DNA of 64,000 nt from a virus: the IMG/VR virus record IMGVR_UViG_3300029190_000103. One strand, given 5' to 3'. The notes beneath the pieces were generated by a model. That model did no database searches. It was not told the DNA's origin and saw nothing but the letters and a program-made list of their open reading frames with translations. The position numbers and the translations under genes are program-made. Positions 1 to 46,155 of the stretch are shown here, piece after piece. The stretch's first letter is position 1. Each line of letters starts with the position of its first letter.

Positions 1-119
1 CTTGATAGTAATAAGTCCTTCTTTATCGACTGCAACCACACTTGCGTTATCATTATTCATAACAATGGACAGTATTTCACCAGTTTCTTTATTCTCATAC
101 GCGAATGAACATGTACTTA

Positions 120-365
120 TCATAACTCAATACCCTCATCATTAGCACGTTCTTCTAACAACATTATGTATCTATTCATTGTATGCAACTGTTCACGTAA
201 AACACCCATTGGGCATTTAGGTTCAAACAATAATGTACCATTGTCAAATTCATAAATCATATTGTCTAGCTTTTCTGCTCTGATTTTCAATTGATAGTAT
301 TCTGCTCTGAATCTATCCTTATAATCGTCACTTTCCATTAATTCAATTGTTTCTTTTAATTCCAT
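120..365 (-). CDS. hypothetical phage protein (81 aa)
   Basis: ORF in track; packed into the minus-strand early gene array; no recognisable motif. Confidence 0.4.
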   Translation of the reverse strand: MELKETIELMESDDYKDRFRAEYYQLKIRAEKLDNMIYEFDNGTLLFEPKCPMGVLREQLHTMNRYIMLLEERANDEGIEL

Positions 366-391
366 ATTTTTGTCCTTTCCTTTATGTGCTT

Positions 392-697
392 TTATTCTTC
401 CTCTATAATGTCATAAGTCTTTTCAAAGATATCAGGCTTGCATGGATACAATTCTCCATTTACACCCTTAATGACATAATCACCAACACTAACATGATGT
501 TTGCCTTCCAACGTGTTGATCATAAGTTCGGCTGGCTTTCCTTCATAATCTTCAAAAAACATTGTTCCATTCATTAGTGCTTGTGCAGCCCATATTGGTA
601 TATATTGCATTCCATTGGTATACATAAAATCCCCATCGTATTGAAATGCTTCTACTTCTACTGGTTTCTTTCTTGCTTTCATTCCACTACCATCCAA
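392..697 (-). CDS. Gp49-like phage protein (N4 Gp49 / Sf6 gp66 family-like)
   Basis: About 100 aa; N-terminal KKPVEVEAFQYDGD motif typical of this small phage family; a paralog lies at 12240-12557. Confidence 0.4.
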   Translation of the reverse strand: MDGSGMKARKKPVEVEAFQYDGDFMYTNGMQYIPIWAAQALMNGTMFFEDYEGKPAELMINTLEGKHHVSVGDYVIKGVNGELYPCKPDIFEKTYDIIEEE

Positions 698-1173
698 TCA
701 TCTGATAACATATCAGCTTGAGATGCAAGCCATCCAAGTTGCACACCACTTGTGCCAACAAAAGCAATTGTTTTATTTCCCATGTCGCTATGGTCAACAT
801 TAACAACTTCATCATTAGTATTCTTATAACTAACGTTAGTAGCTAGTTCAATGTATTGGTTCTTTCCATTCCATCCTTTTCTAGCTAACTTCAATCCTCT
901 CTTTACAAGCTTGATAGCATCTCCAAAACTCATATATGCTACTCCGCCTAAGATGGGAGTATCTTCATCTCTCGCAAAACCCCACTCATCAGATAAAATA
1001 TTTTCCAAAGTATAATCAACTCGTTGGGTTTCTCTAATATCTAATACCTCTCCATCTTTTGTATACATCATGATGGTTTCTTTTTCTTTATCCCAAGTCC
1101 AATAACCACACCAACTTGGTAGTTTCATTTGATATCCAAGTTTTAAATAAAATAACGCTTCTTTAAAATCCAT
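679..1173 (-). CDS. tandem DUF2829 (Thoeris anti-defence Tad2-like) domain protein
   Basis: Two copies of the DUF2829 pattern: N half FKEALFYLKLGYQMKLPSW...YTLENILSDEW and C half FGDAIKLVKRGLKLARKGWNGK...WLASQADMLSDDWMVVE. Confidence 0.5.
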   Translation of the reverse strand: MDFKEALFYLKLGYQMKLPSWCGYWTWDKEKETIMMYTKDGEVLDIRETQRVDYTLENILSDEWGFARDEDTPILGGVAYMSFGDAIKLVKRGLKLARKGWNGKNQYIELATNVSYKNTNDEVVNVDHSDMGNKTIAFVGTSGVQLGWLASQADMLSDDWMVVE

Positions 1174-1185
1174 TTTATTATCCTC

Positions 1186-1470
1186 CTATAGCTTAATAGC
1201 TTTATTGTCCCATTTCTTGTATGCATCTAAATATATTTCTTTTTTATCGCCATTATAAGTTATTTCATAATACATTCCATCACTTATATTTGTACTTGCT
1301 AAAGCTTTGTTATTCTGTAACGTTTTGCATGACCAAACAATATATATATCATTCTCTGTAATTTTCTTTTTGTCTGTCTGATCAACGTTACTATTAAAAT
1401 AGTTTGCTACAATTTTTTTGCATAATTGTAAAAATTCGTTATTACCCATATTATTTATCTCCTTCACCAA
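1186..1470 (-). CDS. hypothetical protein (94 aa)
   Basis: ORF in operon context. Confidence 0.4.
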   Translation of the reverse strand: MVKEINNMGNNEFLQLCKKIVANYFNSNVDQTDKKKITENDIYIVWSCKTLQNNKALASTNISDGMYYEITYNGDKKEIYLDAYKKWDNKAIKL

Positions 1471-1488
1471 CAGGTTTACTTCTTACTC

Positions 1489-1911
1489 TCATTCTATTTC
1501 CTCACTTATTCCTAAAATATATTCTATTTTCCATGGTTCAGTATCTTTATCTTCTATAAATGTAAACAGGTCATTAAACATATCATTTGAATCAATATAA
1601 TTTATACTGCCAGATGGTAACCATATATCGTTATTTTCTTTATCTCTGTATGGTTTATCTTTCCAGCAAGTAACCTCACCCTCATCTCTAGTGATCCATT
1701 TATATCCTTTATCTAAATAATACTTTAAACATTCTTCTTCCAATGTAGACAATTCAGGTACTAATGATGGTATTTCAATGTCCATTGGCGTAAATAACTC
1801 GAAGTTTGAACATCCTTCTTTAAGGATGCAACCGTGACAACCATTACAATTGTGACAATAGTTCTTAATTGTATTTAATGCTTTTATTACTTCTATTTTT
1901 TGTTTTTCCAT
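1489..1911 (-). CDS. Cys-rich hypothetical protein (CxNCxGCHGC)
   Basis: ORF; cysteine cluster CHNCNGCHGCILKEGC suggests metal binding. Confidence 0.4.
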   Translation of the reverse strand: MEKQKIEVIKALNTIKNYCHNCNGCHGCILKEGCSNFELFTPMDIEIPSLVPELSTLEEECLKYYLDKGYKWITRDEGEVTCWKDKPYRDKENNDIWLPSGSINYIDSNDMFNDLFTFIEDKDTEPWKIEYILGISEEIE

Positions 1912-1912
1912 A

Positions 1913-2317
1913 TTAAATATCCTTTCTAATGGCGCATATGATACGTTTAAATACGTTTTTATTGCGGAATATACGAATTCTATACATTAGTTCGTTATAC
2001 TTATCTTCATACTCTACCAAACGTTTACATTGTCTGTCGTATCTTTCTTCCCATGGCTCTTGATGTATGCAACCCCAACCATCTTTCCAAGTTGTTTCAT
2101 ATTTATTTAATTTTGCTTCATATTCACCCAACTGCTTATTTAATTTATTGATCTTCTTATTATTTTCCTCGAACCATTTAATGAATTCTTCTTTAGACTT
2201 AACATTAAATGTTACTTGTGTTCCATCCTGTAGATTGATAGTCAAACCAGCATTTTCACTTGTGATACCTCTAATGACTGCACTACTTTCATTTAATTCA
2301 ACTAATACATTTTTCAT
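1913..2317 (-). CDS. hypothetical protein (134 aa)
   Basis: ORF; charged and coiled-coil-like. Confidence 0.4.
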   Translation of the reverse strand: MKNVLVELNESSAVIRGITSENAGLTINLQDGTQVTFNVKSKEEFIKWFEENNKKINKLNKQLGEYEAKLNKYETTWKDGWGCIHQEPWEERYDRQCKRLVEYEDKYNELMYRIRIFRNKNVFKRIICAIRKDI

Positions 2318-2437
2318 TATTACTTGTCAACCTCCTCAATATAGATATTAATTTCACAGACATCATCTTGATTATCTCCTGCAATTTCATATGCTTCATC
2401 TTCATTTTCAGCTTCAATCTCTAATTCTGCATAGCCT

Positions 2438-3364
2438 TTATATATTGCTTTGTATTTTTTCTTCATGCCTATCCTTTCCTTCACTCATTTTCCTGTAACC
2501 TATTCTACGATATTCATCATATACAGGCTTCCATATGTATTCACATTGCTTACGTTCAGCTGGAAGTAATTCTTCCATTACATCTAATTGTTCTTTCAGT
2601 TTAATTGCGAATGGACACCCTTTACATCCTGTGCGTTCAAAGTTGAATGGCGGATAATATAGTTTACATAGTTCAATATCACGCTGTTTTATATACCAAT
2701 CCATCCAATCATCAGTAACTGGATTCAATGAATTGAATACTTTTATATTTCTTTTTTTGTCATATATAACGCATTCATGATGATTTGCTCTGGAACCACC
2801 TTCACTCATACGAACCCCTGTAATTGGTATTTTTCTAGTTGTCTGTTTTTCATATTTATGAAAGTTTTGTTTTTTAAAAAGCTCACAACATTTTTCGCTT
2901 ATTTTTAAATCATTTTCACATGTAAATTGATATTTAAGACAATTAGGACATTTAAATAAACTCCCTGTACCATCTGATTTTGTTCCATTTAAATAGTTAC
3001 GTGGTGACATGGTTAGACCATTCCTCTGATACTCACTTACTTTCTTTGAATGCATTTTAGATTTGAATGGATATCCATATTCTTCTAATGATAATTTAAT
3101 ATTTCGTTCATTGTTAATGATTACGAATCTATCATCATTTTGACAAAAAGATTTCACAAATTTTACTATATCCACAAATTCCAATCCAGTATTAATAAAT
3201 ACCCTTTCAATTTTATTGTTAGGTAATGCTTCATCCATCAAGTAATGTAATACCGTACTGTCTTTACCACCACTAAACGAAATATAGAAATTTTCCTCTC
3301 CATATTTATTGATGACCAGCTTGATCATCTCAATACGGTCAAATAATAATGTTTCGTTATCCAA
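2438..3364 (-). CDS. phosphoadenosine phosphosulfate (PAPS) reductase family PP-loop protein (DndC/IbrA-like)
   Basis: PP-loop motif SFSGGKDSTVLHYL near the N-terminus; C-terminal Cys clusters (CPNC...CC, TGCKGCPF). Confidence 0.65.
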   Translation of the reverse strand: MDNETLLFDRIEMIKLVINKYGEENFYISFSGGKDSTVLHYLMDEALPNNKIERVFINTGLEFVDIVKFVKSFCQNDDRFVIINNERNIKLSLEEYGYPFKSKMHSKKVSEYQRNGLTMSPRNYLNGTKSDGTGSLFKCPNCLKYQFTCENDLKISEKCCELFKKQNFHKYEKQTTRKIPITGVRMSEGGSRANHHECVIYDKKRNIKVFNSLNPVTDDWMDWYIKQRDIELCKLYYPPFNFERTGCKGCPFAIKLKEQLDVMEELLPAERKQCEYIWKPVYDEYRRIGYRKMSEGKDRHEEKIQSNI

Positions 3365-3372
3365 GTGGTTAC

Positions 3373-3654
3373 CTATTCATACTCCTCATAGTAGATTATC
3401 ATTCTTACTGTTTCAGCGTAATGATGTTCTAATGTTGCACCTTCACTGTATTCCCAACCTTTTAACATGTATATTGCATCGCAATATTTAAGCTCACACA
3501 GTCCCATATCAATATAATCTTTGTAATTAAATCCTTCTGGTTTAACAGGATTGATTACAATGTGTCCTTGTGCTTCTAGTTCCTTTTGTTTCTTTTCAAA
3601 CTGTTCCTTATAATTAGGATTTCCAGTTATTCTGCCTGCTAAATAGATTTTCAA
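3373..3654 (-). CDS. DUF4406 / nucleoside 2-deoxyribosyltransferase-like protein
   Basis: MKIYLAGRITG...VINP pattern of the phage-common DUF4406 fold; TTG start overlaps the upstream gene stop. Confidence 0.4.
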   Translation of the reverse strand: MKIYLAGRITGNPNYKEQFEKKQKELEAQGHIVINPVKPEGFNYKDYIDMGLCELKYCDAIYMLKGWEYSEGATLEHHYAETVRMIIYYEEYE

Positions 3655-4358
3655 CTATTAACCCTTTCCGTTACCTCTTTTATTCTTTGTTCAGCTATAT
3701 TAAAATATTGTTCATCCAACTCAAAACCAATATAATTACGTTTTATTTTAATTGCAGCAATACATGTGCTTCCAATTCCAATAAATGGATCTAGTACAAC
3801 TCCGCCCTCTTTTGACGAATTATCAATCAGTATTTCCATCAACGCTACAGGTTTCTCAGTATCATGAAGGTTCTTGCCATTTTTATCTTTTGTCTTCTTG
3901 TTCGGGATATCAAGTATATCAGATGTACCACAATGGTTTATCTTTACACCTTTTCCTTTTCGGAAGAATAAGATATACTCAAATTGTGACATGTAGAATT
4001 GCCCCATAATTTTATTACCTTTATTCCAAACAAGTGACTTAATAAACTTAAATCCACATTCAGTAGCTGTATTCAACATATTTTGCAGATTTACATGATT
4101 AGTCATTATGTAGCAGTGAGAACCATCTTTCAGAACTCTGTATAATTCAGGCAAATAATCTATAGGTTGTATATCATTATGATTAAATACCTTACCTTGC
4201 ATGTTTATCTTCTTTTGCATCATTCCGCCACTATTGCCAGCATTTCCTCTTGCTGTTGTTTTATATGGTGGATCTGTTATTACTAAATCTATACTTTTAT
4301 CAGGTATTTCTTTCATTAATTCAAGACAGTTCCCTTGCTTAATAAAGCTGTTATTCAA
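3651..4358 (-). CDS. DNA methyltransferase (N6-adenine/N4-cytosine, beta class)
   Basis: DPPY motif IV near the N-terminus (VITDPPYK) and motif I FIGIGST near the C-terminus (PF01555-type); gene ends with TGA, showing TGA is a functional stop here. Confidence 0.8.
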   Translation of the reverse strand: MNNSFIKQGNCLELMKEIPDKSIDLVITDPPYKTTARGNAGNSGGMMQKKINMQGKVFNHNDIQPIDYLPELYRVLKDGSHCYIMTNHVNLQNMLNTATECGFKFIKSLVWNKGNKIMGQFYMSQFEYILFFRKGKGVKINHCGTSDILDIPNKKTKDKNGKNLHDTEKPVALMEILIDNSSKEGGVVLDPFIGIGSTCIAAIKIKRNYIGFELDEQYFNIAEQRIKEVTERVNS

Positions 4359-4374
4359 TCACGATTCCTTTCCG

Positions 4375-4989
4375 TTACTCGTTACAAACCATCGTTATAG
4401 TTTTTAACATTCCTACTATGTCGTACTCATAGTTTACTTTCTTTTTACGTCTATCGACCTTAATTCCAATCTGTTCAGCATCATCTTTATTGATACTCTT
4501 TTTGCCACAGTATCTAGTCCATTCTACAAAGTCTACAATTGGAATTGCATATGTACCACCTTCGGTTGTTTCACCCTTAGAATTAGTTCTATCGGCGTAA
4601 TCAAGTACTAACATCGCATACACATTATCAAAGTTTGTACGCTTCAATAATGACCTGACCTGATGTGGTTTTATCATTACTTTTTTCTTTGTATCTTCAT
4701 ATGATGGTTGATTAAAGCTTATACTTGTATTCTTAGTTGCTTTTAATTCAACATAGAACAGAGAATAGCTGTCAAACAAGAAACAGTCGCAAGGAGAATT
4801 AAGCGTAAACCTAATTGCTCCTCCATTGTTCTGTCCAAACTTGTTTCTATTCTGTCCAAACTTGTTGCTATCTGGAAAGCGTTCATATAACAAATTCTGT
4901 TTTTCTGCTGAATCTTTGAAGTTATCTTCAAATACTTTACCGTTATTTCGCACTCTCGTCACCATACGATTCTGCAACGTCAATCCCAA
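4375..4989 (-). CDS. RecU-like Holliday junction resolvase (PD-(D/E)XK)
   Basis: FYVELKATKNTSISFNQ...IKPHQV resembles the RecU core ([20 protein letters not shown]...QIEHM). Confidence 0.45.
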   Translation of the reverse strand: MGLTLQNRMVTRVRNNGKVFEDNFKDSAEKQNLLYERFPDSNKFGQNRNKFGQNNGGAIRFTLNSPCDCFLFDSYSLFYVELKATKNTSISFNQPSYEDTKKKVMIKPHQVRSLLKRTNFDNVYAMLVLDYADRTNSKGETTEGGTYAIPIVDFVEWTRYCGKKSINKDDAEQIGIKVDRRKKKVNYEYDIVGMLKTITMVCNE

Positions 4990-5197
4990 TCTGTCTCATG
5001 TCGAATACAGATTGTTCTAAACATTCCATTTCTGTGTACATATAAAATAAGATATCTTTACATTGCTTTGTACTTTCGTATTCACCTATAACAAATTTTT
5101 CTCCATCACGATAAGCATATATGTATGTAAATTCTATACTTACATAATCTACTTCACCAAAGAACATACCGTTTTGACTTAAAACAGTTATTTTCAT
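4943..5197 (-). CDS. hypothetical protein (84 aa)
   Basis: ORF. Confidence 0.35.
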   Translation of the reverse strand: MKITVLSQNGMFFGEVDYVSIEFTYIYAYRDGEKFVIGEYESTKQCKDILFYMYTEMECLEQSVFDMRQIGIDVAESYGDESAK

Positions 5198-5485
5198 TTA
5201 TTTATCCAAAGGCTCCCAGTATGTTTCTTCGATTATGCGTGTTTTTCTCGTAACTTCATATGGCTGGTCGTGTACAAAACTTTCTTGGTGTTCTGTAAGT
5301 CCTTTTCTCCAGTCTAATGCAAAATATCTACCGCCAATTTCTAAAATAGTTTGTACATTTTGTGTCCATCTTCCGCTATCTCCTTCTATTTCCTCAAATG
5401 TAAAGGTGTATAATATATCCCACAAATCTCCTTCATTAAACTCATCCCCTGAATCAAATCTTTGTAAAAATTCTTGTTCTGTCAT
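5198..5485 (-). CDS. hypothetical protein (95 aa)
   Basis: ORF. Confidence 0.4.
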   Translation of the reverse strand: MTEQEFLQRFDSGDEFNEGDLWDILYTFTFEEIEGDSGRWTQNVQTILEIGGRYFALDWRKGLTEHQESFVHDQPYEVTRKTRIIEETYWEPLDK

Positions 5486-5665
5486 TCTACTTTCCTTTCT
5501 TTACCTTTCGTTTCTTTCTATTGATTGCATGTCTACAAATCTTTCTCACAACCCAAGCTTCCAGCTTATTCAAATGGATGTGTAGTTCATTTTCTAATTG
5601 AATATCAGGATTTCTCCTGTAATATTCATATGTAATCTGTCTTTGTCTTTGTGTTAATGCTCCCA

Positions 5666-6658
5666 TTAATTCTCCTTCCTATACTTTTCCTGAACATATT
5701 TTGTTCTATTCAAGTAATCCTCTAATGTTTCAATGCTTTGTAAACAACCTTTTACTTCTGAGTCTTTCTTTATTCTACATACAACGCACTTACCATTCTT
5801 TAGCAAGTCAATATATTGTGTATACTTGTTTGCGAACACTGTAATATCAAATGTAACATTACCAACACCTAGATTGATGAACGCCATTTTTTTACCTTTG
5901 TTCTTGCCATTCTTAATTACGTTGGTCTTACAGTTGATGATGACTCCACCAACCCAACCTTCTTCTTCAACATTGACCTTATTCCAATCAGGAAGATAAA
6001 CACCTTCAAATGGATTACCAGATAGGTGTACATTCAGTACTTCCATTTCCCAATCTAACTCCGTTCCTTGACAGTATTTATCCTTGAATTTACTCCATTC
6101 TAGGCGCATTCTATGGTCATTGAATATATGTGTACAAAGTTCTTTATCGTCTTGCTGTTCAGGTGTAATAAGCCCCATATCGAACAGCTGTTTAATATTA
6201 GTCTTGTTAGCCTTTTTGATTGGTTTTTTATCTTCTTTGCCAGCATTAAATCTTGCAATAAAGTACTGTTGAAATAAGAACATCTTTCCTTTATTGGTTA
6301 ATGAATCTAACGCACCTGACTTAATCAGAGCAACAACGTCACCTTTATTCATTGTAATTGCTGTTGTCATGAAGTCTGTTATAGATACGAATGGTCTATT
6401 AGCAAGGATTGTTTTTAAACCATTCTCTGTTAGACCTTTAATGGAACCTAAACCAATCAGAATTTCATTATTTCTTTGATTAGGTGTATATGACAATCCA
6501 GAATTGTTGATATCAGGATTGTTTAATTCAAAACCTAATCGCTTTGCTTCTGATAACAATGTTGAGGCTTTATCTGTACCTTCATCCATAATCAGACAAG
6601 CGGTAAGATACTCAATAGGATAATGAACTTTCAGATATGCGGTAAGATATGACAACAA
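5666..6658 (-). CDS. dnaE: DNA polymerase III alpha subunit (DnaE-type), C-terminal segment
   Basis: Begins in the conserved AYLKVHYPIEYL motif. It is in the same frame as 6680-7786 and separated from it only by an in-frame TGA at 6680-6682. Confidence 0.7.
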   Translation of the reverse strand: MLSYLTAYLKVHYPIEYLTACLIMDEGTDKASTLLSEAKRLGFELNNPDINNSGLSYTPNQRNNEILIGLGSIKGLTENGLKTILANRPFVSITDFMTTAITMNKGDVVALIKSGALDSLTNKGKMFLFQQYFIARFNAGKEDKKPIKKANKTNIKQLFDMGLITPEQQDDKELCTHIFNDHRMRLEWSKFKDKYCQGTELDWEMEVLNVHLSGNPFEGVYLPDWNKVNVEEEGWVGGVIINCKTNVIKNGKNKGKKMAFINLGVGNVTFDITVFANKYTQYIDLLKNGKCVVCRIKKDSEVKGCLQSIETLEDYLNRTKYVQEKYRKEN

Positions 6659-6679
6659 AGCATACGCTACAGCGTGTCC

Positions 6680-7786
6680 TCAGGGTCGATTGAAGCAATA
6701 TTCAGACTGTTTTAATAACAAGTTCCAAATGGCTTCAATCTGTTCATCACCCCAATTCCTTTTTCTAAGACCTTCTTCAAACTTAGGTCGTAATGTTCTC
6801 ATTACATTTTCTTTTTTCTTACCAATTGCTCTACGACCAGTTTCTACTTCAACTTCTGGAAAGCCAGCATATCGCAATAATGATAATGCTTGTTCCTGAT
6901 ATAACAATACACAATGAGATTGTTTGAATAATCTCTTTAAATCTGGATGAATGACTGTTATATCGTATGGATGTAATTTATTGTGACAATAATCTGGGAA
7001 GCTGTCCTTAGTACCTGGTCGGTTAGCACTGTTTACAACAATAATATCTTCAATGTTGTCTGTCTTAGCTTCAATAAGCATTCTTCTAGCCTCTGCCGAC
7101 TCCATTTGAAATACGCCTACTGTTTCACCAGTCTTGTATACTTCATCATATACTTTTCTATCATTTAAATCTAAATGGTTTATATCAACATCTTCCCATG
7201 TAATTCCAGCAAACTTTAATGTCATATCTGCAATTGACAAATTCTTTAGCCCAAGTGAGTCCATCTTGATCAGTTTGATATCATCCATTAACGCATGCAT
7301 TTCAGCTTGGTGCATAATTTCGCCATCTTTGTTGTAACAAACAGGACAATATTCTGTTACAGGCTTTGGTGTAACCATGATTGCTGATGCATGACAACCT
7401 CTTGACTTAGGAAGTCCTGATAGCTTTAATGCGTATTCAAACCACATTGGATATTGCTTATACAATTTTTGTAGCTCATCATTACCTTTGATTGCATCCT
7501 TTAGCGATACATCTATCTCAATTTCATTTCCATCTTTATCAACTTTTTTGATAACAGGAATAGTTTTAGATACAAGGTCACGTAATTCAGGTGTAATCAT
7601 TCCTTTATATGGACTATCTTCTTTATCGTTTAGAACACGCCCTATATCTCTGATTGCAACCTTGTTTGAGAACGTATTGAATGTTGAAATATTACATACA
7701 TTTTCTTCTCCAAACAAATCTTTCATTACTTGGATCATATCTCCACGTTTTAATTTATCAACATCATAATCATACACTTTATCCAT
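6680..7786 (-). CDS. dnaE: DNA polymerase III alpha subunit, polymerase core segment (exon 2)
   Basis: DYDVD (PDIDID-like), GCHASAIMV (polymerase core) and ...EYCFNRP (GYAFNKSH-like) motifs. Confidence 0.7.
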   Translation of the reverse strand: MDKVYDYDVDKLKRGDMIQVMKDLFGEENVCNISTFNTFSNKVAIRDIGRVLNDKEDSPYKGMITPELRDLVSKTIPVIKKVDKDGNEIEIDVSLKDAIKGNDELQKLYKQYPMWFEYALKLSGLPKSRGCHASAIMVTPKPVTEYCPVCYNKDGEIMHQAEMHALMDDIKLIKMDSLGLKNLSIADMTLKFAGITWEDVDINHLDLNDRKVYDEVYKTGETVGVFQMESAEARRMLIEAKTDNIEDIIVVNSANRPGTKDSFPDYCHNKLHPYDITVIHPDLKRLFKQSHCVLLYQEQALSLLRYAGFPEVEVETGRRAIGKKKENVMRTLRPKFEEGLRKRNWGDEQIEAIWNLLLKQSEYCFNRP

Positions 7787-8590
7787 TATTTCTAATGGTG
7801 TAGACTATATCTTACCCTACAGCTTTACTGTTTAGGGTGGTGACACTTCCAGCAGTAACCAATCCTCTGCTGTACTCCCTTATGGGATAGTCGTTGCACC
7901 TTTGTTTAAAATAATTTTATATCCATTAGATGTAAAATATTTTCCTAGTGAAGAATAACTTAGCCCTATGGTTTTGCCATACCTACATGCATCACTAATA
8001 GAATTAAATTCTTTCACTAATTTTCCTTCTGGGTTTACCAATGAACACGGTCTAAAATTTCTTATATTGGAACAATATTTAAACGAATGCACCATATTAT
8101 ATTGATGAGTACACCATTCTAAATTTTCGTAATAGTTATTTGTACAATTATGGTCTATGTGATTAATCTCGTCTAACCCTTCAATACGTGGTACAAACGC
8201 TTCTGCGACCAATCTATGTATTAAATAATGTTTTGATTTTCCATCTTTGCATAAATTAACTGAATAATATCTATGCCTATTGTCAATTTTAGACAATGCC
8301 AAAATCTTTTCTGATTTCATTGAGTAAACTCTACCATGGTCTGATATATAATAATCATCAAGACCATTTATTACTTTCCATCTTTCTTTCATTATCCTCC
8401 TTTTTTATTTTAAACACTTGGCACAGGATTGCCTTCACCATAACGTGCTAAGGTTCCCCTGTTAGCTATATCATTGATATAACACCCCTTGGTAATAGGG
8501 TTCATCACCTTAATTATTCGTAATATTTCTACTACGCCAGACAATGACTTATCTGCCAGAGTTCCTTTTCTGCCTATATTTGCAAACCTA
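7787..8590 (-). mobile_element. group-I-like intron carrying an HNH homing endonuclease ORF, inserted in dnaE (boundaries approximate)
   Basis: DnaE homology stops after RFANIGRK (codons near 8565-8590) and resumes at YDYDVD (near 7786-7800); the interval holds a free-standing HNH ORF; the 5-prime intron part is translated in frame after RFANIGRK without DnaE similarity. Confidence 0.55.
7880..8392 (-). CDS. HNH homing endonuclease (intron-encoded)
   Basis: INHIDHNCTNNYYENLEWCT HNH motif, N-terminal NUMOD4-like region; sits between the dnaE segments. Confidence 0.7.
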   Translation of the reverse strand: MKERWKVINGLDDYYISDHGRVYSMKSEKILALSKIDNRHRYYSVNLCKDGKSKHYLIHRLVAEAFVPRIEGLDEINHIDHNCTNNYYENLEWCTHQYNMVHSFKYCSNIRNFRPCSLVNPEGKLVKEFNSISDACRYGKTIGLSYSSLGKYFTSNGYKIILNKGATTIP

Positions 8591-9765
8591 CTAAAGTCCA
8601 ATCCCCAGCGAACACTATCAATTTGCGTTACATTTAACATGAACAGACACAAACAGTTAGCTCCACTACCTCTTGAATACCCTAATGGTATCTTTCTTCT
8701 TCTGCATTCTTCTGAAATCATATTCAGCATGATAAGGTAATCAACAAAGTCAAGTTCCTCCAGTACAGGGATTTCCATTTCAATTCTTTCTCTACGAATT
8801 TGCTGTTCTTCCTCATTCATCCAACCAAACTTTTCATAGAATGTCTTATAACATAAATACCTTAAATATTCTGTACTATTCTTATATTCGCTAGGAACCT
8901 TGATATGTGGCATTTGCGGTTCATTATCTAACCCAACATCTACTTGTTCGCACATATCTACTATCTCTTGTGTAGCTTGCATACCTTGTTTTATAGCACC
9001 AATAGGTAACTGGTTACTCAATATATCCAATACATCTTTTTCATTCTGCATGAAGCAATCAGTGTATTGCTCTGATAATTCTCTATCCATGCTTACTTCA
9101 ACGAACATTGCATGAGAGTCTACATCATCTTTTGCTATCATATGCGCATCAGTTGTAATAACGTATGGGTAATCATATTCAACAGCAAAGTCATATATCA
9201 ATTTATTAGCTTCTAACTGACTTTGAGTACTATGAGATTGAATTTCACAATACACTTTGTCAAATGTATCGTCTAAATCATCCATATACTCCTCAGCTTC
9301 TTCTTCCATACCATTTACTAGGTATTTGCTCAAACGCCCAGCCTGACATGCTGTTAAACAGATTATTCCTCGCCCCCAATCGTTATTCCTAATACGGTTA
9401 ATATCAATTCTTGGTTTTATATATTGACCTTCTGTATTGGCATATGACACGATATCATACAGGTTATGTAAACCAATATTGTTTCTTGCAATTAATAATA
9501 AGTGATATCTTGTTTCTTTATATTCCTTTGTATTGTTCTTAAATGTATCGTCATCAACTTCGTAAATTTCACAAGCAGCTAAACATTTAATACCTTTTTC
9601 TCTTGCTAATCTTTGACTTAAAATAGTAGCTGACATATTTCCATGATCAGAAATGCATACAGCAGACTGACCGTTCTCTACAGCGTATTCTACTATTTGT
9701 TCGACTGTAGCAATAGAATCTAACAATGAATAGCAACTATGCACATGCAAGTTAGAAAATGCCAT
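8410..9765 (-). CDS. dnaE: DNA polymerase III alpha subunit, N-terminal PHP-domain segment (exon 1; true exon end near 8565)
   Basis: LHVHSCYSLLDS PHP motif, GRGSGA...RFANIGRK region. The last roughly 55 codons of the ORF are intron read-through. Confidence 0.7.
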   Translation of the reverse strand: MAFSNLHVHSCYSLLDSIATVEQIVEYAVENGQSAVCISDHGNMSATILSQRLAREKGIKCLAACEIYEVDDDTFKNNTKEYKETRYHLLLIARNNIGLHNLYDIVSYANTEGQYIKPRIDINRIRNNDWGRGIICLTACQAGRLSKYLVNGMEEEAEEYMDDLDDTFDKVYCEIQSHSTQSQLEANKLIYDFAVEYDYPYVITTDAHMIAKDDVDSHAMFVEVSMDRELSEQYTDCFMQNEKDVLDILSNQLPIGAIKQGMQATQEIVDMCEQVDVGLDNEPQMPHIKVPSEYKNSTEYLRYLCYKTFYEKFGWMNEEEQQIRRERIEMEIPVLEELDFVDYLIMLNMISEECRRRKIPLGYSRGSGANCLCLFMLNVTQIDSVRWGLDFSRFANIGRKGTLADKSLSGVVEILRIIKVMNPITKGCYINDIANRGTLARYGEGNPVPSV

Positions 9766-10230
9766 TTACTTCCTCACAAAATTAAGTTTATAGCCTGAAA
9801 AACCAAAATAATGATTATCCAAAACAAACGATACTATTTTAAATCCAAATAATTTATTATTGATTATTTTTGATTTTAACATATGGTATAAATCTTCGCT
9901 TATTTCAATCGAGTATGCTTCTTTTGTAATTCCCCATAGCTCACACAATTCATGGAAATTTTTTGTAAACATTTCTATTCCTTCTAAAAAATAATTTTCT
10001 GTAAAGCATGTACATACACGCTCACTCTCACCTTGTATCTCAGCAAACAGTCTATCAATCTCAAAACCATTTACTACTTTTACAATTTCTTTGATATTAT
10101 CACCCATACCGCATTTATGTTCAAATAATGGATACTCACAACAATGATAATCTTTATATTTATTACATATATCTTTTCTTACCTTCAGAAATTCTTCATC
10201 AATCAATGTTATTTCCTTTCCGTTCATCAA
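9766..10230 (-). CDS. hypothetical protein (154 aa)
   Basis: ORF. Confidence 0.4.
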   Translation of the reverse strand: MMNGKEITLIDEEFLKVRKDICNKYKDYHCCEYPLFEHKCGMGDNIKEIVKVVNGFEIDRLFAEIQGESERVCTCFTENYFLEGIEMFTKNFHELCELWGITKEAYSIEISEDLYHMLKSKIINNKLFGFKIVSFVLDNHYFGFSGYKLNFVRK

Positions 10231-10353: not shown

Positions 10354-11058
10354 CTACTTCTTTGTCTTTTTCTTTACTTTAGACTTAACCTCTTTTGGTT
10401 TTACTTTACGTAAACCTAATTTATCAATAGCCACTTCTGACCAATTTTCAAAGTTAGTTCCTTTATCGATCAAGTCATTAAGTTCTTCCACTGTCACCCA
10501 TTGACCTTCAAGTTTATCAACTTCATTGATTTCTATTTCACTGCATCCATTATATAGTTCAACCTCTGTTAAGATACAGATATGAACTCTTGATACGTCT
10601 GATGAGTCATCAATGAATACGTCTGATAACTTGATATTCAATTCTCCATTTAGTCCGTCATATGTGGTTTCTTCACGTAATTCACGTTTGATACAATTAA
10701 TAACTGTATTGCGGAAGTCAACGATATCATTTACACCTCTACCACGCTCATAATCGGCATGATCTACATGTCCTCCGACACCAATTGAGTGTTGACCTAC
10801 CAGTCTTGAATCGCCTTTCAAACGCTTTGTAATGAGGTATTTACCGTCATTCTTTAACACAACATATGGAATGACTTGTCTTAAACTTGTATCAAGTTCA
10901 GCTTTGTATCTGTATTCGTAATATCCTCTTTTAGTAACAGCGTTCTCTAACGCTTTCATGGGGCTTTCTCCAACTCTCAACCATGATTCATAATAATCGT
11001 TTTCTACGACCAGTACCTTTTCATTTCCGTATTTCTGTTTTAATTCTTGTTCAGTCAT
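10354..11058 (-). CDS. Nudix-like hydrolase
   Basis: GVGGHVDHADYERG...IKRELREETTY resembles a Nudix box (REx2EE) with an atypical insertion. Confidence 0.4.
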   Translation of the reverse strand: MTEQELKQKYGNEKVLVVENDYYESWLRVGESPMKALENAVTKRGYYEYRYKAELDTSLRQVIPYVVLKNDGKYLITKRLKGDSRLVGQHSIGVGGHVDHADYERGRGVNDIVDFRNTVINCIKRELREETTYDGLNGELNIKLSDVFIDDSSDVSRVHICILTEVELYNGCSEIEINEVDKLEGQWVTVEELNDLIDKGTNFENWSEVAIDKLGLRKVKPKEVKSKVKKKTKK

Positions 11059-19004: not shown

Positions 19005-19640
19005 TTATTGTTTAGTTTCAGTTTGTGGTACATCTAACCCTGTTTCCTCCCGTAATTCCTGATATGCTCTAGCTTGATTATCAATAACATTATCGACCAT
19101 CTTCATGACTTCTAAGAATGTATCTTCAAGGTCTTTTGAGTTATCAATTACATAGTCAAACTTTGACAAATCAGGTGTCGTCGCAATTTGTTCTGATTCA
19201 TGTTTTGCTACATTTCCTTTTAAACCATGTTTGTTTTTATTATCAATATATACGTTAACGATAGTTAGATAATGGTTATATGGTTCAGGTCGCATTTCAT
19301 TTTCAAAACGTGCATCAGTCACAATGAAATATTGGGTATTGCTCATCATAGTTACGATTAAATCCCAAACTACCTGTACAAAGTAATCTTCGTTATTCTG
19401 TCTAATAACATCTCCAACGTTTTGTAGAATTGCTCTGTCTTTGTCCTTATCTCTATATCCATAGTTACGCACACAGATATCTTTTAAAATATCTGCATAC
19501 GCAAGCTGAATGGATGAGCTTTCATATTTACTTTTTAACAGTTGTTGAATCATAACTGCAACAGTATCTTTTCCAGACTGTGCTTTCCCAGTTAATACAA
19601 ATACTACATTTTTAAGCATCAGGGAACCTCTCTGGGTCAT
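19005..19640 (-). CDS. deoxynucleoside monophosphate kinase-like P-loop kinase
   Basis: VFVLTGKAQSGKDT P-loop resembling T4 gp1 dNMP kinase (GVKRSGKDT). Confidence 0.5.
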   Translation of the reverse strand: MTQRGSLMLKNVVFVLTGKAQSGKDTVAVMIQQLLKSKYESSSIQLAYADILKDICVRNYGYRDKDKDRAILQNVGDVIRQNNEDYFVQVVWDLIVTMMSNTQYFIVTDARFENEMRPEPYNHYLTIVNVYIDNKNKHGLKGNVAKHESEQIATTPDLSKFDYVIDNSKDLEDTFLEVMKMVDNVIDNQARAYQELREETGLDVPQTETKQ

Positions 19641-44612: not shown

Positions 44613-45587
44613 TTACTTTACAAACATATTATACATAATTTTGTCCATATTACATTTTGCTATTTTTGAAGCATGAACGTATCTCATTGTGGTAGATCTA
44701 CTGGCATGCCCCATCAACTTTTGCAGTGTATCTTCATCAGCACCATTCTCAATCATTGCTGTAGCAAACGTGTGTCGCAATGTATGAGGATGAATCGTTT
44801 CGTAATCAAGTCCAGCTTTGATGGCCGCATTCTTGACGATTGTATTGATTGTACCCACAGATATTTTTTTACCCTTACTGTCTGGTTGTGTCGTGTGTGA
44901 TACAAACATATACTCGTTTTTATCTTTCCACGTTAGATTTCTTTTTTCAAGATATTCCGTAAGTTGTACGTACAAGTCTTTGTGAATTATTTCAATACGA
45001 ACCTTGTCTCCTTTTCCCTTTGGTTGGATTACATATGACTCATCACTCTTGAAAATATCCCCAACTTTTAAATCTGTTATCTCAGCACGTCGCATTCCTG
45101 TAGTTAGCATTAGAGTGACAATGATCGTGTTACGGAAACCAGCGATACCTTTTGACATTCCAGCACCTTGTATCAGCCTTCTGCCTTCCTCGATGGATAA
45201 TGCCCTATCCTGACTAAATTCTGATATTGCATTCTTGTATCTGTAACATCCTTCGTCTGTTGATATTGGATTATAGTCCATGACACCAACTGATTTACGT
45301 GACAAGAACTTGTAAAAACTGTTTAGGGCAGCAAGCTTTGCATTTACTGTAGCACGCTTCATTCCCTTTTTAATTTGTTCTGAACTCCAATCGTTGACAA
45401 TTTCAGGTGTTACGCTTCTGATATCTTCCAGCGTAATGTCTTTACTGCTTTTCTTGTTGAAGAACTGCAAGATTGAGCGTGCATAACTATCTTTGGTTTT
45501 ATCTGAAAGATTGTTTGTGTACATGTCTGCATAATTAATTTCGTTAGCTTTTCCTACTTGTGTATCGTTTAACATTATCTGTTTCAT
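44613..45587 (-). CDS. int: tyrosine recombinase / phage integrase (XerC/D family)
   Basis: C-terminal HTLRHTFATAMIENGADEDTLQKLMGHASRSTTMRYVH (R..H..Y catalytic box); N-terminal SAM-like core-binding domain. Confidence 0.8.
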   Translation of the reverse strand: MKQIMLNDTQVGKANEINYADMYTNNLSDKTKDSYARSILQFFNKKSSKDITLEDIRSVTPEIVNDWSSEQIKKGMKRATVNAKLAALNSFYKFLSRKSVGVMDYNPISTDEGCYRYKNAISEFSQDRALSIEEGRRLIQGAGMSKGIAGFRNTIIVTLMLTTGMRRAEITDLKVGDIFKSDESYVIQPKGKGDKVRIEIIHKDLYVQLTEYLEKRNLTWKDKNEYMFVSHTTQPDSKGKKISVGTINTIVKNAAIKAGLDYETIHPHTLRHTFATAMIENGADEDTLQKLMGHASRSTTMRYVHASKIAKCNMDKIMYNMFVK

Positions 45588-45765: not shown

Positions 45766-46155
45766 ATGGTAGAAAAAGTTATTTTTACAACAGCACAGTC
45801 TTACAACAATAGCCCTTTAGACGAACTGTTAGCAAACACACCAATCGAAAAGATTGATCTAGCGAAAATGAAATTATTTTTGAATTTATACACAACAAAG
45901 GTAAAAACGGACAGGAGATTTATGTATTCCCTTGAAGCTGATCTGATTGATTATGTTACTGTAGCCCTCAGTAATGTTGACATCACATCACGTGACAGAG
46001 AGATTTTAGATTTTTATTTGTGCGGATACACCGAGAAAGAGATTAGCAGAATTTTAAAAGTTAGTATAAACACAGTAAACAAACACCTTAAATCAAGTAC
46101 AAGAAAAATTATCGAGCAATTGTACAGTGAAGTAGGCGTGGAGGTCAAACATTGA
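45766..46155 (+). CDS. ArpU-family / sigma-70 region-4-like phage late transcription regulator
   Basis: DREILDFYLCGYTEKEISRILKVSINTVNKHLK region-4-like HTH; about 130 aa; sits just upstream of the packaging genes. Confidence 0.55.
   Translation: MVEKVIFTTAQSYNNSPLDELLANTPIEKIDLAKMKLFLNLYTTKVKTDRRFMYSLEADLIDYVTVALSNVDITSRDREILDFYLCGYTEKEISRILKVSINTVNKHLKSSTRKIIEQLYSEVGVEVKH

What the first reader, a model, noticed from the sequence alone, without database searches (positions are those of the whole stretch)
2438..4989. DNA-modification island: PAPS-reductase-like PP-loop enzyme, DUF4406 (deoxyribosyltransferase-like) protein, DNA methyltransferase and RecU-like resolvase
Four adjacent early genes couple a PP-loop ATP pyrophosphatase of the PAPS reductase/DndC/IbrA type (SGGKDS plus C-terminal Cys clusters), a nucleoside 2-deoxyribosyltransferase-like DUF4406 protein, a beta-class N6A/N4C methyltransferase (DPPY ... 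FxGxG) and a RecU-like nuclease. PP-loop enzymes and deoxyribosyltransferase-like proteins recur in phage DNA hypermodification pathways. Their grouping with a methyltransferase suggests a composite anti-restriction modification module, not a lone orphan methylase.
Basis: partly seen in the sequence, partly recalled or inferred. Interest (0 to 1): 0.55.

Follow-up and report, generated by a model that had tools for sequence, protein, structure and literature searches.

The report
Prophage methylase and accessory enzyme cluster
A gut-bacterium prophage carries a DNA methylase next to two poorly understood enzymes in a swappable stretch of probable counter-defence genes, but nothing shows that they build an exotic DNA modification together.

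Summary
The four minus-strand genes exist as described. Three family calls hold: PAPS_reduct (PP-loop SGGKDS, invariant CC...CxxC), DUF4406 (minimal nucleoside-deoxyribosyltransferase fold) and a beta-class N6_N4 methyltransferase. The fourth gene is a SPbeta YotM-type putative Holliday-junction resolvase and gives no hit to any Pfam family, RecU included.

The "composite hypermodification module" reading is not supported.
- The closest named phage, Clostridium phage Amboise, has neither the PAPS-reductase-like gene, nor DUF4406, nor this methylase. At that position it has an unrelated resolvase and a C5 methylase.
- In 80 non-redundant loci with PAPS-reductase-like homologues, DUF4406 lies nearby in one or two.
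- No hydroxymethylase, glycosyltransferase or deazaguanine gene was found among the early-region genes with a precomputed Pfam annotation, and none of the ten largest unassigned early ORFs matches a Dnd, Ssp or BREX model.

Some weaker links do recur. The PAPS-reductase-like gene sits closer to DNA methylases than other genes of the same loci do (P about 3e-5 to 0.02). Close DUF4406 orthologues keep a methylase directly upstream even though those methylases are only 22-33% identical.

Downstream lie a Tad2-like gene and the integrase. I read the segment as a variable counter-defence and accessory segment. It is a new member of known kinds and of modest interest.

The parts
4375..4989 (-). Putative Holliday-junction resolvase of the SPbeta YotM family. 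The gene caller's start is at 4965, giving 196 aa. It follows the polymerase III genes, at the position where Amboise carries an unrelated resolvase.
   Evidence: PHROG 843, E 1.8e-19. No Pfam hit, RecU included. tblastn to SPbeta yotM, about 32% identity, E 7e-13. Unrelated to the Amboise resolvase at the syntenic place. A D...ELK motif is visible in the sequence.
3651..4358 (-). Orphan beta-class N6/N4 DNA methyltransferase. DPPY suggests N6-adenine. An alternative start at 4316 gives 221 aa. No restriction endonuclease lies beside it.
   Evidence: PF01555, E 1.9e-37. PHROG 67, E 2.7e-68. PADLOC MTase_II, E 1.9e-50. NCBIfam CcrM and PRK13699 hits are below their cut-offs. DPPY precedes FIGIG in the sequence.
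3373..3654 (-). DUF4406 protein with a minimal nucleoside 2-deoxyribosyltransferase fold. Putative (deoxy)nucleotide N-glycosidase. Its TTG start overlaps the methylase stop by 4 nt.
   Evidence: PF14359, E 9.1e-29. AF2 model pLDDT 92.8. Foldseek matches to NDT, BcmB, MilB and DNPH1. A family profile hits T. brucei NDT at 1.2e-5 and MilB/BcmB at about 2e-3, with invariant E76 aligned to the Glu of their conserved (S/D)xGTxxExG motif. Junction sequence.
2438..3364 (-). Stand-alone PAPS-reductase-like PP-loop protein with predicted 4Fe-4S ligands (phage family PHROG 424).
   Evidence: PF01507, E 2.2e-15. PHROG 424, E 7.3e-28 over residues 11-295. BrxP 1.6e-16 and SspD 1.7e-6, N-terminal PP-loop part only. 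Invariant SGGKDS, C139, C159-C160, C198, C233 and C247/C250. AF2 pLDDT 89.6. Best solved folds are the Fe-S APS reductases 7lhr and 2goy, E about 1e-6.
1489..2484 (-). Three co-directional ORFs of unknown function (54, 134 and 140 aa) between the PAPS-reductase-like gene and the DUF6275 gene.
   Evidence: No significant Pfam hit. Only weak PHROG hits of unknown function. The ORFs are conserved in sister contigs.
1186..1470 (-). DUF6275 protein.
   Evidence: PF19791, E 4e-35.
679..1173 (-). Tad2-like protein (Thoeris anti-defence 2-like domain), which marks the segment as counter-defence cargo.
   Evidence: PF11195, E 6.9e-22. The same gene is present in sister contig L034, followed by an integrase.
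120..365 (-). crAss001_48-related protein (the tool's precomputed Pfam annotation labels PF21825 'Sequestin').
   Evidence: PF21825, E 1.5e-17.

Best explanation
The region is the variable, distal end of the long early (replication) operon of a temperate phage or prophage related to [Clostridium] innocuum phage Amboise. In near-identical contigs it lies just upstream of the integrase.

The resolvase probably belongs with the replication and recombination genes. The genes after it are swappable accessory cargo that most likely act separately rather than as one pathway.
1. An orphan beta-class, probably N6-adenine, methyltransferase that methylates phage DNA to escape host restriction. The family is shown. 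The target site and the protective role are inferred.
2. A minimal NDT-fold DUF4406 enzyme, translationally coupled to the methylase. It most likely cleaves the N-glycosidic bond of a free (deoxy)nucleoside monophosphate or a related adenosyl compound. That would make it a nucleotide-pool or by-product enzyme, not a DNA base exchanger. This step is inferred.
3. A stand-alone PP-loop, Fe-S 'PAPS reductase-like' ATP pyrophosphatase related to the sulfur-inserting DndC, SspD and BrxP. It probably adenylates a nucleic-acid or nucleotide oxygen and substitutes it. It would serve counter-defence against phosphorothioate- or restriction-based immunity. This step is inferred from one secondary literature report and from gene context.

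The Tad2-like gene further downstream fits the same counter-defence theme.
For: Variable region:
- Amboise shares the polymerase III alpha subunit at 70.6% identity. Nothing distal to that gene is homologous. At the same position Amboise has an unrelated resolvase, a 176-aa protein and a C5 methylase.
- A 78%-identical PAPS-reductase-like gene (P0002) sits in other prophages with three different left-hand neighbour sets: Dam plus C5 methylases, a PAPS-reductase paralogue plus DUF4406, or an unknown protein.
- A sister contig has the central ~450 bp of the PAPS-reductase-like gene replaced, inside flanks that are 96-97% identical.

No pathway partners:
- The other early genes that could be assigned are replication, recombination and anti-repressor genes. 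No thymidylate-synthase-like, glycosyltransferase or queuosine/deazaguanine family was found among the annotated early genes.
- None of the ten largest unassigned early ORFs matches a Dnd, Ssp or BREX model.

The PAPS-reductase-like gene is linked to DNA-modification genes:
- Methylases are its commonest immediate neighbours: N6_N4 in 10, C5 in 3, ParB_N in 4 and Mom in 2 of 141 flanking proteins.
- A methylase lies within +-2 genes in 24 of 35 informative loci against 12.7 expected (P 3e-5). After clustering at 60% identity this is 13 of 24 against 8.1 expected (P 0.02).
- The literature places phage PAPS reductases in variable anti-defence regions, and one is reported to promote evasion of Dnd (PMC13551039 citing Piel 2022).

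DUF4406 as a nucleotide N-glycosidase:
- The fold and the invariant Tyr4, Ser70 and Glu76 fit the family, with Glu76 on the conserved Glu motif of MilB and BcmB.
- Structural relatives in phages are fused to MazG-like dATP/dGTP diphosphohydrolase, dUTPase or hydrolase domains.

DUF4406 next to methylases:
- L041, L042 and L043, N15 gp57-gp58, L045, and the Fontainebleau and Brachyspira prophages show this.
- The DUF4406 proteins are 51-78% identical, while the adjacent methylases are only 22-33% identical.

Counter-defence context: a Tad2-like gene and then the integrase.
Against: - No function was measured here for any of the three enzymes.
- DUF4406 has no experimental literature in the held library.
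- The broad DUF4406 sample shows no positional enrichment for methylases beyond being in the same region (8 of 13 against 6.9 expected, P 0.33).
- DUF4406 and the PAPS-reductase-like gene do recur close together in several lineages (window, L022, L037, L146, L162, L167; 3 of 38 DUF4406 loci by the Pfam census). A functional tie between them is therefore not excluded.
- The anti-Dnd precedent is a roughly 30%-identical vibriophage family. It is known to me only through a secondary citation.
- Tight packing and start/stop overlap would also suit a true multi-enzyme operon.
Confidence: 0.55

Rival explanations
1. The methylase, DUF4406 and the PAPS-reductase-like protein work together as one DNA hypermodification pathway, for example a thiolated or exchanged base or a phosphorothioate mark. 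The result would be non-canonical phage DNA that resists restriction.
For: - The genes are co-directional and tightly packed, with a 4-nt overlap and an 8-nt gap.
- The trio is conserved in all near-identical sister contigs.
- The PAPS-reductase-like protein has the PP-loop and Fe-S chemistry of sulfur-inserting enzymes.
- DUF4406 and the PAPS-reductase-like gene are neighbours in several other lineages (L022, L037, L146, L162, L167).
- PF05014 NDTs have been proposed as helpers in the diaminopurine pathway (bioRxiv 10.1101/2025.10.22.683976).
Against: - The trio is not conserved beyond the species-level lineage. Amboise lacks all three.
- DUF4406 lies nearby in only one or two of 80 PAPS-reductase-like loci.
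- P0128, a DUF4406 orthologue at 78% identity, has no PAPS-reductase-like gene within 3.5 kb.
- Established phosphorothioation needs an ATPase and a DNA-binding partner (DndD/E, SspB/C or BrxC; PMC12914056). None was found.
- DUF4406 relatives are fused to nucleotide-pool enzymes, not to DNA-binding modules.
- N15 and other phages without any reported hypermodification, to my knowledge, carry DUF4406.
Confidence: 0.12
2. The methylase and DUF4406 form a two-gene unit. DUF4406 would be a helper N-glycosidase that removes a by-product or pool contaminant of methylation, such as S-adenosylhomocysteine or methylated dNMPs. The PAPS-reductase-like gene would be an independent neighbour.
For: - The start and stop codons overlap in the window.
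- A methylase lies directly upstream in L041, L042 and L043, and one gene away in the P0128 prophages.
- A C5 methylase overlaps or abuts DUF4406 in N15 and L045.
- Methylases of three different classes are involved, and they are only 22-33% identical beside DUF4406 proteins that are 51-78% identical. That points to something common to all methylases.
- Methylases are the commonest family among the +-2 neighbours of DUF4406: 10 of 140 proteins from 38 loci.
Against: - The within-locus positional test is not significant (8 of 13 against 6.9, P 0.33).
- Most of the 38 DUF4406 loci have no methylase within two genes (10 methylases among their 140 +-2 neighbours).
- The substrate idea is pure inference.
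- The invariant Ser70, which by my recollection marks 5'-phosphate-binding members of the fold, argues for a nucleotide rather than S-adenosylhomocysteine.
Confidence: 0.15
3. Pure juxtaposition of unrelated cargo with metabolic roles. The PAPS-reductase-like gene would be a CysH-type auxiliary metabolic gene for sulfate assimilation, and DUF4406 a nucleoside-salvage enzyme. Neither would concern DNA modification or defence.
For: - Databases name the family 'phosphoadenosine phosphosulfate reductase' and class it as an auxiliary metabolic gene (PHROG 424).
- A preprint reads Bifidobacterium prophage copies as sulfur-metabolism genes.
- The best solved-structure matches are APS and PAPS reductases.
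Against: - The CysH and APS-reductase models score far below their cut-offs (24.4 against 165.1 bits, and 29.9 against 235.3 bits).
- The protein keeps the canonical ATP-pyrophosphatase loop SGGKDS. By my recollection of those families, sulfonucleotide reductases have lost it.
- It is positionally associated with DNA methylases, Mom and ParB.
- No sulfate-assimilation partner lies nearby.
- The intragenic mosaic allele suggests arms-race dynamics.
Confidence: 0.1

Closest known systems
Phage 'PAPS reductase' family (PHROG 424) and its cellular relatives DndC, SspD and BrxP
   Same: PP-loop SGGKDS and Cys ligands of the CC...CxxC type. Full-length match to PHROG 424. N-terminal match to the BrxP and SspD models. 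Location in variable phage regions next to DNA-modification genes.
   Different: A stand-alone 308-aa protein. There is no match to a DndC model at E <= 0.01, and the BrxP and SspD matches cover only the PP-loop part. No DUF4007, DndD/E, SspB/C or BrxC partner was found. Identity to the vibriophage members is only about 30%.
Assimilatory APS/PAPS reductases (CysH; P. aeruginosa and M. tuberculosis APS reductase)
   Same: They are the best solved-structure matches (7lhr and 2goy, E about 1e-6). They share the CC...CxxC arrangement for a 4Fe-4S cluster. A Cys lies about 24 residues after the CxxC.
   Different: 13-18% identity, with a TM-score of only 0.46 normalised to the query. Family models score far below their cut-offs. 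The PP-loop is canonical rather than degenerate, by my recollection. Extra inserts lie at about residues 100-150 and 255-290.
Nucleoside 2-deoxyribosyltransferase superfamily (NDT; CMP N-glycosidases MilB and BcmB; DNPH1/Rcl)
   Same: The same fold (TM 0.73-0.78 normalised to the query). The conserved N-terminal YxAG and the (S/D)xGxxxE motif are present, with Glu76 on the conserved Glu of that motif.
   Different: It has only 93 residues against 120-160. PF05014 scores below its cut-off. No activity is known for any DUF4406 member in the held literature.
Orphan phage beta-class N6/N4 methyltransferases (CcrM/HinfI-like; PRK13699 type)
   Same: PF01555 over the full length. Motif IV (DPPY) precedes motif I (FxGxG). 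No adjacent endonuclease.
   Different: It scores below the equivalog cut-offs for CcrM, PRK13699 and PRK11524, so the target sequence cannot be assigned.
SPbeta YotM-type putative Holliday-junction resolvase (PHROG 843)
   Same: About 32% identity over 86% of the length. It has the same position class, in replication and recombination modules of Bacillota phages.
   Different: There is no match to any Pfam family, RecU included, at E <= 0.1, nor to any solved structure by sequence. Resolvase activity has not been tested.

Membership tests
Pfam PF01507 PAPS_reduct (PP-loop superfamily) | Score above the gathering threshold. PP-loop SGGxDS. | tested here: met
   57.5 bits against 22.5. SGGKDS is invariant in 31 homologues.
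DndC / SspD / BrxP phosphorothioation enzymes | Full-length match to the family model. | tested here: not met
   The PADLOC BrxP match covers model positions 115-213 of 779. The SspD match covers 4-74 of 277. No DndC model matches at E <= 0.01.
DndC / SspD / BrxP phosphorothioation enzymes | Co-encoded ATPase (DndD, SspC or BrxC) and DNA-binding partner (DndE, SspB or DUF4007). The literature reports these as essential for phosphorothioate synthesis (PMC12914056). | tested here: not met
   No such gene among the neighbours. None of the ten largest unassigned early ORFs matches a PADLOC model. Host-encoded partners cannot be excluded.
DndC / SspD / BrxP phosphorothioation enzymes | Phosphorothioate links in the DNA. 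| not testable with these tools
   Needs LC-MS/MS or iodine cleavage of phage DNA.
CysH / APS reductase (sulfate assimilation) | Score above the NCBIfam cut-offs. | tested here: not met
   TIGR00434: 24.4 against 165.1 bits. TIGR02055: 29.9 against 235.3. PRK02090: 25.1 against 154.
IbrA-type PAPS reductase | C-terminal DUF3440 domain and a ParB-like IbrB partner (from my recollection of the family). | tested here: not met
   No further Pfam domain is found in the protein. There is no ParB neighbour in the window. ParB_N is a neighbour in 4 of 141 flanking proteins elsewhere.
Pfam PF14359 DUF4406 | Score above the gathering threshold over the whole domain. | tested here: met
   100.2 bits against 22, covering residues 1-89 on model positions 1-91 of 91.
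Nucleoside 2-deoxyribosyltransferase PF05014 | Score above the gathering threshold. | tested here: not met
   17.1 bits against 28.8.
Nucleoside 2-deoxyribosyltransferase superfamily (fold level) | The NDT fold with the conserved Glu in the (S/D)xGTxxExG motif. | tested here: met
   Foldseek match to 2a0k, E 2e-5, TM 0.76. The family profile hits T. brucei NDT at 1.2e-5, with invariant E76 on that Glu.
Nucleoside 2-deoxyribosyltransferase superfamily (fold level) | Glycosidase or transferase activity. | not testable with these tools
   Needs an enzyme assay.
Beta-class N6/N4 DNA methyltransferase PF01555 | Score above threshold. Motif IV (D/S)PPY lies N-terminal to motif I FxGxG. | tested here: met
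   129.8 bits against 26.7. DPPY is near residue 30 and FIGIG near residue 185.
RecU Holliday-junction resolvase PF03838 | Match to the Pfam model. | tested here: not met
   No Pfam family matches at E <= 0.1. No solved RecU is found by sequence. The protein matches PHROG 843 and SPbeta YotM instead.
Known phage hypermodification pathways (hmC/hmU derivatives, 7-deazaguanines, diaminopurine, Mom) | Signature enzymes: dNMP hydroxymethylase, glycosyl- or amino-acyl transferases, DpdA/QueCDE, PurZ/DatZ, or Mom. | tested here: not met
   None was found among the early-region genes that were examined. A dNMP-kinase-like protein and a NUDIX protein are present but are not specific to such pathways.

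The most novel reading that the evidence does not exclude
The methylase, DUF4406 and the PAPS-reductase-like protein are a three-enzyme pathway that installs a so far undescribed sulfur-containing or exchanged-base mark on the DNA of gut Erysipelotrichaceae phages. The PP-loop/Fe-S enzyme would work without the usual Dnd, Ssp or BREX partners. A smaller version of the idea is that DUF4406 is a general helper glycosidase of phage DNA methylases.
Probability: 0.1. Interest if true: 0.8.

Novelty: new member of a known kind. Interest (0 to 1): 0.3.

Why it matters
The region itself is ordinary. Orphan methylases, 'PAPS reductases' and NDT-like genes are common phage cargo, and the literature already places phage PAPS reductases in anti-defence hot spots.

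Two by-products are worth keeping.
1. The stand-alone phage PAPS-reductase-like family is large: 4890 proteins at E <= 1e-5 in one search. It is measurably linked to DNA methylases, Mom and ParB rather than to sulfur metabolism. This bears on its routine annotation as a sulfur 'auxiliary metabolic gene' in gut viromes.
2. DUF4406 has no function in the literature I could search. Here it shows an intact NDT-type active-site motif, fusions to dNTP pyrophosphatases, and a recurrent place beside methylases. Together these give a cheap, testable biochemical hypothesis.

Tried and rejected
- A megablast of window 1-8000 against the phage collection found nothing. The relatives were found only at protein level.
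- Sequence searches of the PDB with the three proteins gave no meaningful hit. Folds had to be predicted.
- The afdb50 fold library was not available.
- The primary paper for the anti-Dnd role of a phage PAPS reductase (Piel et al. 2022) is not held. I rely on the statement in PMC13551039.
- The review of the phosphorothioation machinery (PMC10853773) says nothing on phage stand-alone copies.
- I considered that the resolvase is part of the module. I rejected this because Amboise has a different, unrelated resolvase at the same place. The YotM-type gene also never accompanies PAPS-reductase-like homologues elsewhere (0 of the 29 IMG/VR loci; the family model built found it only in the near-identical sister contig L034).
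- I considered a fixed pairing of the PAPS-reductase-like gene with DUF4406. I rejected it as a rule (one or two of 80 loci) but noted it as recurrent.
- I considered the dNMP-kinase-like and NUDIX genes as signs of a modified-nucleotide pathway. They are not specific, and Amboise shares the kinase.
- My ORF caller and home-made methylase models are crude. The counts are lower bounds and the P values are approximate.


Full report
**Observation**

Window 2438-4989 holds four adjacent minus-strand ORFs.

| Coordinates | Length | Call | Main evidence |
|---|---|---|---|
| 2438-3364 | 308 aa | PAPS_reduct | E 2.2e-15; PHROG 424 over residues 11-295 |
| 3373-3654 | 93 aa | DUF4406 | E 9.1e-29; PHROG 5781 and PHROG 355 'nucleoside 2-deoxyribosyltransferase' |
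| 3651-4358 | 235 aa | N6_N4_Mtase | E 1.9e-37 |
| 4375-4989 | 204 aa | putative resolvase | no Pfam hit, RecU included; PHROG 843 'Holliday junction resolvase' 1.8e-19; about 32% identical to SPbeta YotM |

In the methylase, DPPY lies upstream of FIGIG, which is the beta-class motif order. The methylase stop and the DUF4406 TTG start overlap by 4 nt, and 8 nt separate DUF4406 from the PAPS-reductase-like gene. Promoter-like and terminator-like sites are no more frequent than in shuffled sequence. The genes therefore look co-transcribed within a long minus-strand early operon.

**What the element is**

The window is a temperate phage or prophage with about 32% G+C.
- Positions 1-9965 are 100% identical to a human-gut metagenome contig.
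- Near-identical contigs continue past window position 1 with two small ORFs, an integrase and then non-phage-looking genes, including a PNP_UDP_1 gene.
- The closest named phage is Clostridium phage Amboise, which infects [Clostridium] innocuum. Its polymerase III alpha subunit is 70.6% identical.
- Upstream of the finding lie replication genes: a DnaE-like polymerase interrupted by an HNH endonuclease, an exonuclease, primase, DnaB, a Sak4/AAA_24 protein and a dNMP-kinase-like protein.
- Downstream lie three small unknown ORFs, DUF6275, a Tad2-like protein (PF11195, 6.9e-22) and a crAss001_48-related protein.

**Is it one module? The comparative test**

1. Amboise has, after its polymerase III gene, two small ORFs, a resolvase unrelated to the one here, a 176-aa protein and a C5 cytosine methylase. 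Searching the complete Amboise genome with tblastn and with family HMMs finds no PAPS-reductase-like gene, no DUF4406, no beta-class methylase and no YotM-type gene. Everything distal to the polymerase is non-homologous between the two related phages. The segment is a variable region.

2. The PAPS-reductase-like family is large, with 4890 proteins at E <= 1e-5. I took 29 IMG/VR loci, 80 genome loci and the contexts of the 78%-identical P0002, and reduced them to 80 non-redundant loci.
   - DUF4406 lies nearby in one or two of them, L022 and L037.
   - The YotM-type gene lies in none of them.
   - P0002 sits in prophages with conserved right-hand neighbours and three different left-hand sets. 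These are a short PAPS-reductase-like protein plus Dam plus a C5 methylase, a PAPS-reductase paralogue plus DUF4406 plus a 156-aa protein, or a 296-aa unknown protein.

3. The 78%-identical DUF4406 orthologue P0128 lies in a different prophage, in the order PcfJ, N6_N4 methylase, SNF2 helicase, DUF4406. It has no PAPS-reductase-like gene within 3.5 kb.

4. Only contigs that carry the identical resolvase, which are essentially the same phage, keep the full arrangement. In one of them the central ~450 bp of the PAPS-reductase-like gene (window 2701-3152) is replaced by unrelated sequence, inside flanks that are 96-97% identical.

5. No signature gene of a known hypermodification pathway was found among the early-region genes that were examined. 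None of the ten largest unassigned early ORFs matches a PADLOC model, including Dnd, Ssp and BREX components.

**What does recur**

- DNA methylases are the commonest immediate neighbours of the PAPS-reductase-like gene. Among 141 flanking proteins, 10 are N6_N4_Mtase, 3 are C5 methylases, 4 carry ParB_N and 2 are Mom.
- A within-locus positional test finds a methylase within +-2 same-strand genes in 24 of 35 informative loci, against 12.7 expected (P about 3e-5).
- After clustering the loci at 60% identity the count is 13 of 24 against 8.1 expected (P about 0.02).
- The PAPS-reductase-like gene is therefore linked to DNA-modification genes of several unrelated kinds. That suggests a parallel role in the same arms race rather than dependence on one partner.
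- For DUF4406, the nearest relatives (51-66% identical: L041, L042, L043) have a beta-class methylase directly upstream, as in the window.
- N15 gp57 overlaps the C5 methylase gp58. L045 overlaps a C5 methylase. The Fontainebleau phage and a Brachyspira prophage have a methylase close by.
- Those methylases are only 22-33% identical to the one in the window.
- In a broader sample of 38 non-redundant IMG/VR loci, methylases are again the commonest +-2 neighbours (10 of 140 proteins), and PAPS_reduct occurs three times.
- The positional test on that broader sample is not significant (8 of 13 against 6.9, P 0.33). The link between DUF4406 and methylases is suggestive, not established.

**The proteins**

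*PAPS-reductase-like protein.*
- Thirty-one homologues keep SGGKDS, C139, C159-C160, C198, C233 and C247-x2-C250 invariant, and C274 in at least 90%.
- The model is confident (pLDDT 89.6). Its best solved matches are the Fe-S APS reductases (7lhr and 2goy, E about 1e-6, TM 0.46 normalised to the query and 0.66 to the target). CysH, the FAD-synthase PAPS domain and the Fe-S tRNA thiolases TtuA and NcsA follow.
- The CysH and APS-reductase models score far below their cut-offs.
- The PADLOC BrxP and SspD models match only the PP-loop part, and no DndC model matches.
- A canonical PP-loop together with Fe-S ligands points to ATP-dependent adenylation followed by substitution, as in DndC or TtuA. 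This is inference.
- Established phosphorothioation also needs an ATPase and a DNA-binding partner (PMC12914056). These are absent here.
- A 2026 paper states that phage PAPS reductases cluster in variable anti-defence regions, and that one promotes evasion of host Dnd, citing Piel et al. 2022 (PMC13551039). I could not read the primary paper.
- A preprint reads Bifidobacterium prophage copies as sulfur-metabolism genes. The neighbourhood data here speak against that reading for this family.

*DUF4406.*
- The model is confident (pLDDT 92.8). It matches NDTs, the CMP N-glycosidases BcmB and MilB, and DNPH1.
- A family profile hits T. brucei NDT at 1.2e-5 and MilB and BcmB at about 2e-3. The invariant Glu76 aligns with the Glu of their (S/D)xGTxxExG motif. 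One MilB entry in the PDB hit list is an E103A mutant, and I take E103 to be that Glu from memory.
- From memory, a Ser at the position of Ser70 marks the nucleotide-hydrolysing members, such as Rcl/DNPH1 and MilB, rather than the nucleoside transferases. This is a lead, not a test.
- Structural relatives in viruses are often fused to MazG-like dATP/dGTP diphosphohydrolase, dUTPase or 'hydrolase' domains. That fits an enzyme of the free-nucleotide pool.
- The held literature reports no function for DUF4406.

*Methylase.* It is a full-length beta-class enzyme with DPPY, so probably N6-adenine. It has no neighbouring endonuclease and scores below every equivalog cut-off, so the target site is unknown.

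**Conclusion**

The best-supported reading is a variable accessory and counter-defence segment at the end of the early operon. It contains an orphan methylase for self-protection, a coupled NDT-fold nucleotide glycosidase of unknown substrate, and a stand-alone PP-loop/Fe-S enzyme of the family implicated in countering phosphorothioate-based immunity. A Tad2-like gene follows. The resolvase occupies the place after the polymerase genes where Amboise also carries a resolvase, so it probably belongs with the replication and recombination genes.

The composite hypermodification pathway is not excluded. I give it about 0.1. It lacks comparative support and it lacks the partner genes that known pathways need. 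All four families are already catalogued, so I rate this a new member of known kinds, with modest interest.

Noticed in passing
window 5666-9765 (-): The DnaE-like polymerase III alpha gene is in three pieces (451, 368 and 330 aa). A free-standing HNH/NUMOD4 endonuclease gene (7880-8392) lies between the first two. Sister contigs lack the HNH insert and have one 769-aa ORF. Another contig has pieces two and three fused into a 704-aa ORF. The interruptions are therefore polymorphic within the phage population.
   Followed up: partly
window 2701-3152 (inside the PAPS-reductase-like gene) compared with L222 6814-7250: In an otherwise 96-97% identical phage, the central ~450 bp of the gene (residues about 72-221) is replaced by sequence with no blastn similarity. 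The product is the 296-aa mosaic protein P0009, whose two ends are nearly identical to the window protein.
   Followed up: partly
window 679-1173 (-) and 120-365 (-): A Tad2-like (Thoeris anti-defence 2) domain protein and a crAss001_48-related protein (PF21825, labelled 'Sequestin' in the tool's precomputed Pfam annotation) lie just downstream of the finding. In sister contigs two more small ORFs and then the integrase follow.
   Followed up: partly
window 1-9965: This stretch is 100% identical to a human-gut metagenome contig (ENA ERZ914930, run ERR589551, contig k127_13787, 81 kb). Many other gut assemblies carry near-identical copies.
   Followed up: yes
window 10354-11058 (-) and 19005-19640 (-): A NUDIX-domain protein (E 1.9e-5) and a dNMP-kinase-like protein (PHROG 139, 1.3e-27; the Pfam DNMK score is just below its cut-off) sit in the replication module. 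Amboise also has an annotated dNMP kinase.
   Followed up: no
L037 4024-6915: A prophage in NCBI assembly GCA_003603575.1 carries two PAPS-reductase-like paralogues (298 and 304 aa). Between them lie a DUF4406 gene, which overlaps the first paralogue by 23 nt, and a 156-aa ORF.
   Followed up: no
alignment A2 (flanking genes of L005-L134): Two loci have a Mom-family (adenine hypermodification) gene directly beside the PAPS-reductase-like gene. Four have ParB_N-domain neighbours, which recalls the IbrA/IbrB arrangement.
   Followed up: no
window 44613-45587 (-) and 45766-46155 (+): A second tyrosine-recombinase/integrase-like gene (Phage_int_SAM_1 plus Phage_integrase) and a divergent GerE/sigma-70 region-4-like regulator sit at the boundary between the minus-strand early genes and the plus-strand late genes.
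   Followed up: no
protein P0005 (alignment A1, columns 1-100): One 369-aa homologue of the PAPS-reductase-like protein carries a tandem duplication of its first ~73 residues, PP-loop included.
   Followed up: no
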